64,000 nucleotides of DNA, taken from a virus (lineage: Duplodnaviria > Heunggongvirae > Uroviricota > Caudoviricetes). Within the stretch, counting starts at the first letter, position 1. Each line of letters opens with the position of its first letter. Positions 34,419-54,555 of this stretch are shown here, piece after piece. The notes under the pieces were generated by a model. That model had not been told where the DNA came from and searched no databases. It saw nothing but the letters and a program-made list of their open reading frames with translations. Position numbers and translations under genes: made by a program. The stretch lies in IMG/VR virus record IMGVR_UViG_3300035210_000190, one strand, 5' to 3'.

Positions 34419-34491
34419 AGAGGTGTATATCAGTTGGTAGATAGTCTCCCTCGCAGGGAGAAGGTCGCGGGTTCAAGTCCCGTCACTGATG
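34419..34491 (+). tRNA. Degenerate tRNA-like element, nominal anticodon CGC (Ala)
   Basis: D arm TATC-AGTTGGTA-GATA, anticodon arm TCTCC-CTCGCAG-GGAGA, T arm GCGGG-TTCAAGT-CCCGT; two acceptor mismatches, no CCA. Confidence 0.6.
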
Positions 34492-34519
34492 TGGATTTAG
34501 GCCGAGAGGTCAGGACAAA

Positions 34520-34593
34520 TACGGTGTATATCAGCGGCCTAGATAATCTCTCTAACCGAGAGAAGGACGTAGGTTCAAATCCTACCACTGTAT
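34520..34593 (+). tRNA. tRNA-like element, nominal anticodon AAC (Val), atypical loop
   Basis: Full acceptor TACGGTG/CACTGTA, D arm TATC/GATA, anticodon arm TCTCT-CTAACCG-AGAGA, T arm GTAGG-TTCAAAT-CCTAC; no encoded CCA. Confidence 0.7.
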
Positions 34594-34603
34594 TGCAAGA
34601 ACC

Positions 34604-52836: not shown

Positions 52837-53064
52837 ATGTGCAGTAAAACAGATGCTGATGGTTTTCTGCCTTGCCCATTTTGTGGTGGCACTGAAATTC
52901 ACATGGAAACATGGAGCCGTCAACGAGGTGAGTGGCAAGGAAAAGTAACCAATGAGTGCTGTGGATATACGTTCATTGTCTTGAATGTCTATGGATCTAC
53001 CAAGAAAGAAGTTATCGAATTCTACAAAAAAATGTGGAACAAAAGACCAGAAAAAGCTTGCTAA
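52837..53064 (+). CDS. lar: Lar-like restriction alleviation protein (Zn ribbon)
   Basis: LPCPFCGG...ECCGY...EVIEFYKKMWNKR matches the Lar family layout. Confidence 0.7.
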   Translation: MCSKTDADGFLPCPFCGGTEIHMETWSRQRGEWQGKVTNECCGYTFIVLNVYGSTKKEVIEFYKKMWNKRPEKAC

Positions 53065-53086
53065 GTGGTTCGAAGTTTGATAGAAT
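53058..53086 (+). promoter_or_regulatory. Sigma70-type promoter of the ncRNA + tRNA operon
   Basis: TTGCTA-17-TAGAAT. Confidence 0.75.
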
Positions 53087-53111
53087 AGCCACATTGAAAC
53101 AGAGCAACAAA

Positions 53112-53268
53112 CAGAATTCGGAGCCTGCGTAAAAGTGGGTTGGGTGGCAGCGGTGTCGCGGGCAAGCCACTAACGAGACATGAGAGCAATCTCTGTCTCA
53201 CGGTAGAGAGGGGAATTAAAGTGTGGTTTGCTTTGATTAAAACGGCTGGGTGAGTCGGCTCCTTTCTG
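53112..53268 (+). ncRNA. Unknown structured RNA
   Basis: GC-rich non-coding island closed by CAGAA/TTCTG and GGAGCC/GGCTCC; internal GTGGC/GCCAC and GAGACA/TGTCTC stems; GCAA tetraloop. Confidence 0.65.
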
Positions 53269-53290
53269 CTAACCTAATTTAAAAGTTTAT

Positions 53291-53446
53291 ACAGTAGTAG
53301 CTCAACGGTGGTTAAAGTAGGCCGCGACTTGCAAGGAGATTCTAGACTCTTTTCTTGACGGTTTGGCTGATGATAAACCGGCTTTCGACAGCAGAGCGTG
53401 CCCTAATAAGGCAAGGTGTTTGGTTCGACTCCAGCCTATTGTACCA
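53291..53446 (+). tRNA. tRNA-Ile(AAT)-like gene with 79-nt structured D-loop insertion and encoded CCA
   Basis: Acceptor ACAGTAG/CTATTGT-A-CCA; TAGCTCAACGGTGGTT...AGAGCG; anticodon arm TGCC-CTAATAA-GGCA; T loop TTCGACT. Confidence 0.75.
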
Positions 53447-53454
53447 ACAACCGA

Positions 53455-53488
53455 AAACAACTTGTTGAAAGACAGGTTGTTTTTTTTT
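53455..53488 (+). terminator. Intrinsic terminator of the ncRNA-tRNA unit
   Basis: AAACAACTTGT-TGAAAG-ACAGGTTGTTT followed by a T run. Confidence 0.8.
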
Positions 53489-53588
53489 GCCTAAAAGATA
53501 TGAAAAATCATAAATTACTTCAAAAAACACTTTCTTTGAGTGTTCATATTTGGTATACTAGACCTTCAATATTTGGAGATACCCGAAA

Positions 53589-53786
53589 ATGATGACTAAC
53601 ACGACTTCTCAAATCAAAGTGGTTAAAAACGAAGGCGACTTCAAACGTGCAATGGAAGCTGGCTTTGCTATTAACCTGTTCGAATGTTCGGAAACAGAAA
53701 TGTGGATTGTCTTGCCAATGGAAAAGGCTGACATGAAAATGTACGCAGAACATCACGGCTTCACTCCAGTCGCTGTTGCTCAATAA
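53589..53786 (+). CDS. Hypothetical protein
   Basis: GGAG RBS, upstream TATACT. Confidence 0.75.
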   Translation: MMTNTTSQIKVVKNEGDFKRAMEAGFAINLFECSETEMWIVLPMEKADMKMYAEHHGFTPVAVAQ

Positions 53787-53811: not shown

Positions 53812-54021
53812 ATGGTTGATATTGTGAGCTTGGCCGAAAAGAAACTTTGCACTTGTGGCAAATGCAAAGCCACCTTGTCTTTCTCGGATGATGAGGTGAC
53901 TTCTTTTGTTGAGCGAAAATACATTGGACAAGCTCAAAAAAAATATTCCCTGTTGTGCCCGAACTGTAACCATAAGATCGTTTCCGCCCTGCCTTGGTTT
54001 CCTGTTGGGCTTTGCGATTAA
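53812..54021 (+). CDS. Zinc-ribbon protein
   Basis: CGKC...CPNC; AAGGA RBS before ATG 53812. Confidence 0.75.
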   Translation: MVDIVSLAEKKLCTCGKCKATLSFSDDEVTSFVERKYIGQAQKKYSLLCPNCNHKIVSALPWFPVGLCD

Positions 54022-54126: not shown

Positions 54127-54555
54127 ATGAACCCAGTTATCATTAACAGCCCATTGAACTCTTACGATGTTGGTCAGCGTGACGCGGCAATTTCTGTCAT
54201 CAACACCAACCTCACTGCACCCGAATTCGACGCGGTTTTCCGTGACGCTATAAACGATTATCTGGAAGGTTGGTTGTCGTTTGAACCTGCTGTTCAACGC
54301 ACTCTGGCAGCAGTGCAGGCTGTTGAAGAAGATACTCCAGAGCATGAGGCTGCTCTTTTGCTGTTCAATGATGAGTTTGTGAAACAGCATGAGTTTGGTG
54401 AGGCTAACCAAGTCTTTGAACATGAAGGACAGAAACTTTTGCTGACCCACTTTATTGAAAACGAAAAGCTGCCAGCAGATTTCTCTGTTATGAGCTTGGC
54501 AGAATGGTTGGAAATGAAGACCGAAGAAACGACCACTGGTTTTACCGCAGAATAA
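54127..54555 (+). CDS. Acidic hypothetical protein
   Basis: Own promoter and terminator. Confidence 0.8.
   Translation: MNPVIINSPLNSYDVGQRDAAISVINTNLTAPEFDAVFRDAINDYLEGWLSFEPAVQRTLAAVQAVEEDTPEHEAALLLFNDEFVKQHEFGEANQVFEHEGQKLLLTHFIENEKLPADFSVMSLAEWLEMKTEETTTGFTAE

What the first reader, a model, noticed from the sequence alone, without database searches (positions are those of the whole stretch)
53291..53446. tRNA-Ile(AAT)-like gene with a 79-nt structured domain inserted in the D-loop
Seen: removing 53314..53392 leaves TAGCTCAACGGTGGTT|AGAGCG-TGCC-CTAATAA-GGCA...GGTTCGACTCC...A-CCA, close to the bacterial tRNA-Ile pattern (UAGCUCAGGUGGUUAGAGCG...CUGAUAA), with a fully paired acceptor stem and encoded CCA. 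The insert folds (AGGC/GCTT closure, CAAG..CTTG and CGGTTT/AAACCG hairpins). Known: bacterial tRNA introns are self-splicing and sit in the anticodon loop; D-loop introns are archaeal/eukaryal and need a splicing endonuclease; A34 is rare in bacteria outside tRNA-Arg(ACG). Inference: either a new kind of spliced tRNA or a tRNA-scaffolded chimeric RNA (aptamer or decoy). Caveat: the anticodon stem has only 4 bp and the T stem has a bulge.
Basis: partly seen in the sequence, partly recalled or inferred. Interest (0 to 1): 0.85.

Follow-up and report, generated by a model that had tools for sequence, protein, structure and literature searches.

The report
Non-decoding phage tRNA carrying extra arm
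A huge uncultured phage keeps a 156-base RNA gene with the body of a tRNA and a conserved ~83-base extra arm in its D-loop; because the anticodon loop varies freely between relatives, it is most likely a tRNA-shaped carrier RNA and neither a spliced nor a decoding tRNA.

Summary
Positions 53291-53446 (+) have a 7-bp acceptor stem, A73, an encoded CCA, D stem, T arm, a 4-bp anticodon stem and the usual tRNA tertiary nucleotides. About 83 nt are inserted between D-loop nucleotide 20 and A21. ARAGORN and Rfam call nothing natively; ARAGORN calls tRNA-Ile(AAT) once the insert is deleted.

I found 11 distinct variants on about 27 metagenomic contigs of related huge phages. Stem substitutions keep pairing (99% of cells), and promoter and terminator are conserved. 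The core of the insert (53321-53367) is invariant in 9 of 11 variants. The anticodon loop is the most variable part, with five versions of 5, 6 or 7 nt, some lacking U33 or a purine at 37. After insert removal, 4 of 10 variants tested are not callable as a standard tRNA.

I found no bulge-helix-bulge motif at the insert borders. Rfam gave no intron or ribozyme match.

Best reading: a tRNA-derived, non-decoding scaffold RNA that keeps its D-loop arm and is co-transcribed behind a second, covarying structured RNA in a counter-defence-like island. This scan had already noted the same family on other DNA (e1-5419792, e1-5432620, e1-1859317).

The parts
53058..53086 (+). Sigma-70-type promoter (TTGCTA, 17 nt, TG-n-TAGAAT) of the non-coding unit
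   Evidence: Promoter scan. The extended -10 TGATAGAAT is conserved in all loci, including L018, where the upstream gene differs.
53112..53268 (+). Upstream structured RNA, co-transcribed; a separate family that also precedes an ordinary tRNA in a related phage
   Evidence: RNAalifold gives 48 pairs, 10 with compensatory changes. Shorter copies precede tRNA-Cys in G001 (L003:463-754, tRNA-Cys 769-842). No Rfam match.
53291..53446 (+). The tRNA-shaped RNA (156 nt): acceptor 53291-53297/53436-53442, A73 53443, CCA 53444-53446
   Evidence: The acceptor helix is 100% paired in 11 variants, with A-U to G-C at 6:67 and G.U/G-C at 4:69.
53300..53309 (+). D stem 5' strand (53300-53303) and the 5' part of the D-loop with A14, A15 and the G18 G19 pair (53307-53308)
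   Evidence: Read from the sequence. GG, A14 and A15 are invariant in all variants.
53310..53392 (+). About 83 nt inserted between D-loop nucleotide 20 and A21 (53393); flanking linkers 53310-53320 and 53368-53380 are variable
   Evidence: Alignments; per-region variability.
53321..53367 (+). Core hairpin of the insert: helices 53321-53324/53364-53367, 53326-53329/53360-53363 and 53332-53338/53351-53357, with apical loop 53339-53350 containing the palindrome TCTAGA
   Evidence: Invariant in 9 of 11 variants. Compensatory C-G to U-A at 53322:53366 in L039. A-U to G-C plus two G.U to A-U changes in the upper helix of L018. It is the minimum-energy fold in 7 of 8 variants when the tRNA body is fixed.
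53381..53392 (+). Mini-hairpin GCT-TTCGAC-AGC with a T-loop-like loop, directly before A21
   Evidence: Invariant. L022, L020 and L039 carry a paired T...A insertion that lengthens the stem by one base pair.
53399..53413 (+). Anticodon arm: 4-bp stem and 7-nt loop CTAATAA (the nominal anticodon AAT is 53405-53407)
   Evidence: The stem covaries (C-G / U.G / U-A). The loop is the most variable region, 1.57 changes per column against 0.13-0.69 elsewhere, with five versions.
53418..53435 (+). T arm (loop 53424-53430, TTCGACT)
   Evidence: Pair 51:63 varies U-A / U.G / C-G. The bulged T is absent in L006, L022, L020 and L039, which gives a perfect 5-bp stem.
53453..53493 (+). Intrinsic terminator (14-bp stem, T run)
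   Evidence: conserved in all complete loci.

Best explanation
This is a real, conserved RNA gene of a lineage of huge phages. It is a tRNA-derived RNA that no longer decodes. The tRNA body is kept as a scaffold: acceptor stem with encoded CCA, D stem, 4-bp anticodon stem, T arm and elbow nucleotides. A conserved arm of about 83 nt is grafted into the solvent-exposed part of the D-loop, between nucleotide 20 and A21. The arm stays in the mature RNA and is the functional cargo.

The unit is transcribed from its own promoter, behind a second structured RNA, and ends at its own terminator.

Inferred steps: host RNase P cuts at 53291, which also frees the upstream RNA. The 3' end is trimmed to the encoded CCA. 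The L-shape gives stability and possibly docking to tRNA-binding factors. The arm (a rod-like hairpin with a conserved 11-12-nt loop, plus a T-loop-like mini-hairpin) binds a protein or RNA partner during phage-host conflict.

Shown here: existence, conservation, tRNA-likeness, the insert position, the degenerate anticodon loop and the lack of intron signals. Not shown: expression, processing, retention of the arm and the partner.
For: - tRNA body: ARAGORN calls a tRNA once the insert is deleted, and model R1 aligns real tRNAs over its whole length with the insert skipped. U8, A9, A14, A15, G18 G19, A21, G26, A44, G46, T54-Psi55-C56 and A58 are all present and invariant across variants; G45 and U48 each vary in some variants.
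- Selection on structure: across 11 distinct variants, 99.0% of pair cells are paired, against 30-50% when partners are slid. Three pairs have compensatory double changes. The covariation score is reached by 2 of 500 shuffles.
- Insert conserved: 53321-53367 is invariant in 9 of 11 variants whose tRNA parts differ by up to about 14%. The insert has its own compensatory changes.
- Not decoding: there are five anticodon-loop versions, CTAATAA, CTAATCG (C37, C32-G38), TCACAAG (no U33), CACAA (5 nt) and TGATAA (6 nt). After insert deletion ARAGORN finds no tRNA in L025, L022 and L020, and only a 2-base 'anticodon' in L018.
- Not an intron: no bulge-helix-bulge motif at the borders, and no Rfam intron or ribozyme match at E<=10.
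- Not coding: variants differ by several 1- and 2-nt indels.
- Autonomous unit: promoter and terminator are conserved.
- Context: Lar-like gene upstream. An Acb1-type gene lies a few genes downstream in related loci. In L039/L040 a T4 Rnl1-type RNA ligase gene comes directly after the unit.
Against:
- All homologs are close (81-99% identity), so covariation is thin and rests on a few events.
- The relative invariance of the insert comes from a shallow tree. In the most distant variant (L018) the insert core has changed as much as the rest (8 of 47 positions).
- The fold of the arm is not settled. A three-way-junction alternative also pairs 98.7% of cells.
- A degenerate anticodon loop would also be expected in a gene on its way to loss.
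- No partner for the arm is identified.
Confidence: 0.6

Rival explanations
1. It is an intron-bearing tRNA. The D-loop insert is cut out by an unknown phage or host endonuclease and ligase, or by self-splicing, to give a working tRNA-Ile(AAU/IAU).
For: Deleting the insert gives a sequence that ARAGORN accepts as tRNA-Ile in 6 of 10 variants. Related phages carry a T4 Rnl1-type RNA ligase beside the locus.
Against: The anticodon loop is 5 or 6 nt, or lacks U33 or a purine at 37, in several variants that are otherwise well conserved. The anticodon stem has 4 bp. There is no bulge-helix-bulge motif at the borders and no group I/II or small-ribozyme match. The insert core is sequence-invariant where the 'exons' vary, the opposite of a passive intron. 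Rnl1 is absent from the 64-kb window.
Confidence: 0.06
2. The tRNA-like part is mainly a processing handle, like mascRNA behind MALAT1. Its job is to recruit RNase P so that the upstream structured RNA gets a defined 3' end, and the arm has no function of its own.
For: The upstream RNA family is followed by an ordinary tRNA-Cys in G001. The association 'structured RNA then tRNA' is therefore older than the insert. The upstream RNA has strong covariation.
Against: A plain tRNA would do that job. It does not explain an invariant 47-nt insert core with compensatory changes, the encoded CCA, or the kept anticodon stem. In L001 the upstream RNA is followed by a non-tRNA sequence, so a tRNA is not required.
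Confidence: 0.12
3. It is an aminoacylated tRNA-like RNA that acts outside normal decoding, either as an amino-acid donor for a transferase or as a tmRNA-like ribosome ligand.
For: Intact 7-bp acceptor stem, A73, encoded CCA and a canonical T loop are all conserved. These are the parts that aminoacyl-tRNA synthetases, EF-Tu and transferases read.
Against: No known anticodon-independent identity set is present: no G3:U70, no long variable arm and no G-1. ARAGORN finds no tmRNA or tag reading frame. No synthetase or transferase gene was seen among the neighbours scanned.
Confidence: 0.08
4. It is a decaying tRNA pseudogene that picked up junk DNA in the D-loop.
For: The anticodon loop is degenerate, the anticodon stem is short, and the window copy has a T-stem bulge.
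Against: The gene is conserved with its promoter and terminator in about 27 contigs. Every stem substitution but three keeps pairing, and there are compensatory double changes in both body and insert. The insert is among the best-conserved parts.
Confidence: 0.03

Closest known systems
Canonical class I elongator tRNA (Rfam RF00005), e.g. phage or bacterial tRNA-Ile and tRNA-Thr
   Same: Cloverleaf body with a 7-bp acceptor stem, A73-CCA, 4-bp D stem, T arm with a TTCRA loop and the full set of tertiary nucleotides. The locus model aligns T4 tRNA-Thr (32 bits), T4 tRNA-Ile (20 bits) and G001 tRNA-Thr (27 bits) end to end.
   Different: The D-loop has about 90 nt instead of 7-11. The anticodon stem has 4 bp. 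The anticodon loop is not conserved in length or sequence. Neither ARAGORN nor Rfam detects it natively.
YrlA-type bacterial and phage Y RNAs (Rfam RF02553; Chen et al. 2014, PMC4201824)
   Same: [quoted passage not shown] Some members are cut by RNase P and receive CCA, and the family also occurs in phages. The authors proposed that the tRNA module gives nuclease protection.
   Different: YrlA carries a Ro60-binding stem where the anticodon arm would be and lies beside rsr. Here the anticodon stem is kept, the extra domain sits in the D-loop, no RF02553 match appears at E<=10, and no Ro60 gene was seen among the proteins scanned.
tmRNA
   Same: A tRNA-like acceptor/T-arm module with a CCA end, joined to a large non-tRNA domain.
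   Different: In tmRNA the large domain replaces the anticodon arm and carries a tag reading frame and pseudoknots. Here the anticodon stem persists, the insert is 83 nt in the D-loop, there is no tag, and ARAGORN gives no tmRNA call.
Archaeal non-canonical tRNA introns (bulge-helix-bulge, including D-loop positions) and bacterial group I introns in tRNA
   Same: Extra sequence interrupts a tRNA gene at a non-anticodon position, as in some archaeal cases.
   Different: No bulge-helix-bulge motif at the borders. Transcription signals are bacterial in type. At 83 nt the insert is too short for a group I core, and Rfam gives no match. The insert is conserved as sequence.
Phage T4 stable RNAs rnaC and rnaD (species 1 and 2 RNAs of the T4 tRNA cluster), and mascRNA/MALAT1-type tRNA-like processing modules
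   Same: Small stable non-coding RNAs of unknown function encoded with phage tRNAs. As read from the T4 record, rnaC carries a T-arm-like hairpin near its 3' end and rnaD ends in CCA. In mascRNA/MALAT1 a tRNA-like element downstream of another RNA can define that RNA's 3' end (from established knowledge).
   Different: No sequence or structure homology: model R1 does not match rnaC or rnaD at E<=10. Neither T4 RNA has a full cloverleaf with a D-loop arm.
Engineered 'tRNA scaffold' for expressing recombinant RNAs (from my own knowledge; not checked in a paper here)
   Same: A tRNA body is used to get processing and stability for a grafted RNA.
   Different: The engineered graft replaces the anticodon stem-loop. 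Here the graft is natural and sits in the D-loop.

Membership tests
Canonical decoding tRNA (RF00005) | 7-bp acceptor stem, discriminator base, CCA or a CCA-addable end, T arm with T54-Psi55-C56...A58 | tested here: met
   acceptor 100% paired in 11 variants; the T loop TTCRAnT is conserved.
Canonical decoding tRNA (RF00005) | D-loop of about 7-11 nt | tested here: not met
   About 90 nt lie between the D-stem strands (53304-53393).
Canonical decoding tRNA (RF00005) | 5-bp anticodon stem and 7-nt loop with U33 and a purine at 37, conserved among orthologs | tested here: not met
   The stem has 4 bp. Loops have 5, 6 or 7 nt, and some have C33 or C37.
Canonical decoding tRNA (RF00005) | Detected by standard tRNA finders | tested here: not met
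   ARAGORN and Rfam at the gathering threshold and at E<=10 give no call. It is detected only after in-silico deletion of the insert.
Archaeal-type spliced tRNA (bulge-helix-bulge intron) | 3-nt bulge, 4-bp helix, 3-nt bulge spanning both exon-intron borders | tested here: not met
   A script scan of 8 variants found no such motif at positions 19-25 / 99-104. The few matches lie elsewhere and are not conserved.
Archaeal-type spliced tRNA (bulge-helix-bulge intron) | A splicing endonuclease and ligase available in the host or virus | not tested
   Only 64 kb of the genome is available. An Rnl1-type ligase is not in the window but is present in relatives.
Group I / group II intron or small self-cleaving ribozyme in a tRNA | Match to the catalytic core model | tested here: not met
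   No Rfam match at E<=10 in 52900-53700. A CUGAUGA string in the window copy is not conserved in homologs.
tmRNA | tRNA-like domain plus a tag reading frame and pseudoknots | tested here: not met
   ARAGORN finds no tmRNA, and Rfam gives no match.
YrlA / bacterial Y RNA (RF02553) | Covariance-model match; Ro60-binding stem; rsr gene nearby | tested here: not met
   No RF02553 match at E<=10. No TROVE/Ro60 hit among the 18 window proteins scanned with Pfam. The rest of the genome was not seen.
Phage tRNA-scaffold RNAs noted earlier in this scan (e1-5419792 and relatives) | The same 156-nt RNA with a D-loop arm in related huge phages | tested here: met
   The scan's index reports shared short words with e1-5432620 and e1-5419792. 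My own homolog set shows the same architecture.

The most novel reading that the evidence does not exclude
The RNA is a counter-defence tRNA decoy. The intact tRNA body and the conserved D-loop arm would clamp a host factor that senses or cleaves tRNA, such as an anticodon nuclease. The shortened or scrambled anticodon loop would make the decoy uncleavable. On this reading the loop's exceptional variability (five versions among near-identical RNAs) records an arms race and not neutral decay. The location in an island with Lar-like and Acb1-like genes, and in some relatives next to a T4 Rnl1-type tRNA-repair ligase, would fit.
Probability: 0.15. Interest if true: 0.85.

Novelty: new variant of a known kind. 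Interest (0 to 1): 0.55.

Why it matters
Natural tRNAs, and the tRNA mimics described so far, enlarge or replace the variable arm or the anticodon arm. I found no description of a conserved, folded domain of about 83 nt in the D-loop of an otherwise complete tRNA body (four literature searches, and a review of non-canonical tRNAs).

If the RNA is stable, it would be a natural counterpart of the engineered tRNA scaffold. It would show that huge phages reuse the tRNA shape as a chassis for other RNA modules. Its place in a counter-defence-like island, and beside a tRNA-repair ligase in some relatives, makes it a candidate RNA player in conflicts over tRNA.

In practice, such genes are invisible to tRNA finders and to Rfam. 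They would otherwise be mis-annotated, after 'intron' removal, as tRNA-Ile with a rare A34.

Tried and rejected
- **Exact and degenerate DNA pattern scans.** Eight scans of viral contigs, two of metagenome contigs and two of genome contigs. None found a homolog of the tRNA-like RNA. One 20-nt match (L017) was chance. All homologs came from neighbouring proteins via the look-up of encoding contigs.
- **BLAST of the locus against GenBank phages.** No match.
- **The 437-kb relative G001.** It has no copy, by BLAST or by the covariance model. Its syntenic site keeps the upstream RNA but is followed by about 300 nt of unrelated non-coding sequence.
- **Whole records of L010 and L018.** Not searchable.
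- **The look-up of sequencing runs.** There is no expression or splice-junction evidence either way.
- **Kissing between the upstream RNA loop and the insert.** The loop GTCGCGG (53155-53161) is complementary to CCGCGAC in the insert (53322-53328). The same loop is conserved in G001 copies that precede a plain tRNA-Cys, where no partner exists. In L039 the insert changes C to T without any change in the loop, while its intramolecular partner G76 changes to A. Rejected as unsupported.
It remains possible (98.7% paired). It is 1.3-8 kcal/mol less stable than the rod-plus-mini-hairpin fold in all 8 variants tested and has one fewer compensatory pair.
- **P0002 (65 aa, downstream) as an obligatory protein partner.** All six homolog clusters found have the RNA upstream. 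However, L039/L040 carry the RNA without P0002. P0002 has no Pfam family. The AlphaFold model is weak (pLDDT 62, beta-alpha-beta-beta-alpha-beta) and has no significant PDB match.
- **'Rnl1 replaces the RNA in the same slot' (L010-L015).** Only the Lar-like gene is shared between those loci and the window, so this is not a clean cassette swap.
- **Segment-by-segment identity to flanking DNA (second half).** It used crude coordinate offsets, and I do not rely on it.

Full report
**What is there.** The window is part of an uncultured huge phage. Most large reading frames have no Pfam or PHROG family. One matches virion structural protein PHROGs, and earlier notes of this scan describe the same genome as a large phage.

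Between a Lar-like gene (52837-53064; PF14354 at E 1e-4, below its cut-off) and a 65-aa gene (53589-53786) lies a 524-nt stretch with no credible reading frame. It contains:
- a sigma-70-type promoter with an extended -10 (53058-53086);
- a structured RNA (53112-53268);
- a 22-nt spacer;
- the flagged element (53291-53446);
- a strong intrinsic terminator (53453-53493).

**Checking the observation.**
- acceptor stem ACAGTAG/CTATTGT, 7 of 7 paired, then A73 and an encoded CCA;
- U8 and A9;
- D stem GCTC/GAGC;
- anticodon stem TGCC/GGCA (4 bp) with loop CTAATAA;
- a 4-5-nt variable loop;
- a T arm with loop TTCGACT and one extra T in the stem.

The nucleotides that build the tRNA L-shape are all in place: A14, A15, G18 G19 at 53307-53308, A21 at 53393, G26, A44, G45, G46, U48, T54-Psi55-C56 and A58.

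ARAGORN and Rfam do not call a tRNA here. The extra material lies between D-loop nucleotide 20 and A21. In ordinary tRNAs this is the length-variable, solvent-exposed part of the D-loop (established tRNA knowledge). The exact borders cannot be read from the sequence.

**Homologs.** Pattern scans of the public collections found nothing. Fetching contigs that encode relatives of the flanking proteins worked.

A covariance model of the element (R1) then found full-length copies at 136-202 bits on about 27 contigs from Logan, ENA and JGI assemblies. These give 11 distinct sequences that are 81-99% identical. The same model aligns ordinary 75-nt tRNAs end to end with the insert skipped: G001 tRNA-Thr and tRNA-Pro, and T4 tRNA-Thr and tRNA-Ile, at 20-32 bits. 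The tRNA likeness is therefore not a chance pattern.

Promoter, upstream RNA, spacer motif and terminator are conserved with the element. This holds even in L018, where the upstream gene is different.

**What is conserved and what is not.** On the 11 variants, 99.0% of base-pair cells are paired, against 30-50% when partners are slid by 1-3 columns.
- The acceptor helix shows A-U to G-C at 6:67 and G.U/G-C at 4:69.
- The anticodon stem shows C-G, U.G and U-A at its last pair.
- The T stem shows U-A, U.G and C-G at 51:63.
- The covariation score is reached by 2 of 500 shuffles.

The tree is shallow, so this support is real but thin.

Per column, the insert core (positions 31-77, 53321-53367) has 0.17 changes, all of them in the most distant variant in the 10-variant set scored (L039, added later, changes two more core positions). 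The mini-hairpin has 0.13 and the acceptor strands 0.14-0.29. The anticodon loop has 1.57, and all seven of its columns vary.

The loop exists in five versions:
- CTAATAA;
- CTAATCG, with a pyrimidine at 37 and a pairable C32-G38;
- TCACAAG, with no U33 and a broken first stem pair;
- CACAA, 5 nt;
- TGATAA, 6 nt.

After insert deletion ARAGORN finds no tRNA in three of the ten variants tested and a two-base 'anticodon' in a fourth. Several 1- and 2-nt indels between variants rule out a protein-coding explanation on either strand.

**The insert.** With the tRNA body held fixed, the minimum-energy fold in 7 of 8 variants is the same, and in the window copy that fold is within 0.3 kcal/mol of the minimum. 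It consists of a rod-like hairpin spanning 53321-53367 and a small hairpin GCT-TTCGAC-AGC (53381-53392) directly before A21. The rod's apical loop is 11-12 nt (ATTCTAGAC...) and contains the palindrome TCTAGA.

Comparative support is as follows.
- In L039, C32 to T is matched by G76 to A, so a C-G pair becomes U-A.
- In L018 the upper helix changes from CAAGGAG/TTTTCTTG to AGGAAA/TTTCCT. That is one A-U to G-C change and two G.U to A-U changes.
- In L022, L020 and L039 a T and an A inserted on either side of TCGAC lengthen the mini-hairpin by one pair.

The loop TTCGAC has the sequence of a T-loop. Whether it makes a T-loop-type tertiary contact is inference. The linkers on either side of the rod (53310-53320, 53368-53380) are variable and can pair in variant-specific registers. 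I could not settle that part.

**Intron tests.**
- No bulge-helix-bulge motif is present at the insert borders in any of eight variants.
- Rfam gives no group I/II or small-ribozyme match at E<=10.
- A CUGAUGA string in the window copy is not conserved.
- Transcription signals are bacterial in type.
- No Rnl1-type ligase is encoded in the window.

Together with the degenerate anticodon loop, the 4-bp anticodon stem and the sequence conservation of the insert, this makes a spliced decoding tRNA unlikely.

**Surroundings.** The upstream RNA is a structured RNA in its own right: 48 predicted pairs, 10 with compensatory changes, and no Rfam match. Two shorter copies of it precede a normal tRNA-Cys in the 437-kb relative G001. 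At the syntenic site of G001 it is followed by about 300 nt of unrelated non-coding sequence. The pattern 'structured RNA then tRNA' is therefore older than this element. RNase P cleavage at the tRNA 5' end would also release the upstream RNA; this is inference.

A 7-nt complementarity between the upstream RNA's apical loop and the insert gets no comparative support and is probably incidental.

Gene order varies around the unit:
- Lar-like, unit, 65-aa, 69-aa, 142-aa genes (window and most loci);
- the same without the Lar-like gene (L018);
- Lar-like, unit, T4 Rnl1-type RNA ligase, 142-aa homolog (L039/L040);
- Lar-like followed directly by Rnl1 with no RNA unit (L010-L015).

An Acb1-type gene lies a few genes downstream in L018, L019 and L039. 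This looks like a variable counter-defence island, and the link to a tRNA-repair ligase is suggestive only. The 65-aa neighbour is not an obligatory partner, and its fold prediction was uninformative.

**Most likely mechanism.** I commit to the following, with about 0.6 confidence overall. The gene makes a stable RNA of about 156 nt that uses a tRNA body as chassis. RNase P sets its 5' end, the encoded CCA its 3' end, and the L-shape gives nuclease resistance and possibly access to tRNA-binding proteins. The conserved D-loop arm projects from the elbow and carries the function, most likely binding of a protein or RNA in phage-host conflict. The anticodon stem is kept as a structural strut, and its loop is free to vary.

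Conservation, tRNA mimicry, insert site, loop degeneracy and lack of intron signatures are shown. Expression, processing, retention of the arm and the partner are inferred.

**Comparison with known systems.** It works like the tRNA-like modules of YrlA Y RNAs, which are processed by RNase P and CCA-adding enzyme and were proposed to protect the RNA (PMC4201824). It also works like the engineered tRNA scaffold. It fails the membership tests for YrlA (no model match, no Ro-binding stem), tmRNA, intron-bearing tRNAs and canonical tRNA. T4 rnaC and rnaD are analogous orphan stable RNAs in a phage tRNA cluster but are not homologous.

Neither a review of non-canonical tRNAs (PMC7609411) nor four literature searches turned up a tRNA with a folded D-loop domain. 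The library is limited to open-access papers, so this is absence in what I searched and not proof of novelty.

**Earlier notes of this scan.** The same RNA was flagged on other DNA (e1-5432620, e1-5419792). One follow-up reached the same broad verdict, a tRNA look-alike kept and not spliced. This report adds:
- the five loop versions;
- the localisation of the insert between nucleotide 20 and A21;
- the rod-plus-mini-hairpin fold with its compensatory changes;
- the negative bulge-helix-bulge test;
- the weakening of the kissing-loop idea and of the G4:U69 idea (G4:U69 occurs in only 5 of 11 variants);
- the Rnl1 neighbour.

**Verdict.** The 'tRNA-Ile(AAT) with an intron' reading is unlikely, and the 'tRNA-scaffolded RNA' reading is favoured. 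It is a new variant of the known kind 'tRNA-derived non-decoding RNA'. Interest is moderate to high for RNA and phage biologists. It is limited by the unknown function, the narrow phylogenetic spread seen so far and the lack of expression data.

Noticed in passing
window 53112-53268; L003:463-754; L001:3276-3436: The upstream structured RNA is a family of its own: 48 pairs, 10 with compensatory changes. It has a conserved core (GGAGCC...GGTGTCGCGGGC hairpin ... TTGATTAAAACG hairpin) and a variable middle domain. It precedes this tRNA-like RNA, a plain tRNA-Cys (two tandem short copies in G001), or an unrelated ~300-nt non-coding stretch. No Rfam match.
   Followed up: partly
L001:3440-3765: In the 437-kb relative G001, the place of the tRNA-like RNA is taken by about 300 nt of different, ORF-free sequence that ends in its own terminator. 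It may be another cargo RNA.
   Followed up: no
L039:1270-2391, L040 likewise; L010:3340-4482 and L011-L015: A T4 Rnl1-type RNA ligase gene (PF09511) sits directly after the RNA unit in L039/L040, and directly after the Lar-like gene (with no RNA unit) in L010-L015. The island is mosaic.
   Followed up: partly
window 34419-34594: Two adjacent tRNA-like genes: ARAGORN calls Ala(cgc) and Val(aac), and only the first passes Rfam. The second has the anticodon loop CTAACCG, with a pyrimidine at 37 and a pairable C32-G38, like some variants of the element studied here. It has no encoded CCA. The first has tandem G.A/A.G mismatches in its acceptor stem.
   Followed up: no
L003:7866-7941 (G001): ARAGORN reports a tRNA with a four-base anticodon (agaa) next to tRNA-Thr in the related phage.
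   Followed up: no
window 53589-53786 (P0002), 53812-54021, 54127-54555 (P0003): Three small genes (65, 69 and 142 aa) follow the RNA unit in most loci. None has a significant Pfam family. The 69-aa protein gives only weak zinc-ribbon-type hits. The 142-aa protein is the most widely conserved neighbour (17 clusters, down to 61% identity).
   Followed up: partly
anticodon-loop columns of alignment A5/A8: The loop versions CTAATAA and CTAATCG are each found in both main sequence clades (window clade and L004 clade). This suggests recombination between phage variants or recurrent change at these two positions.
   Followed up: no
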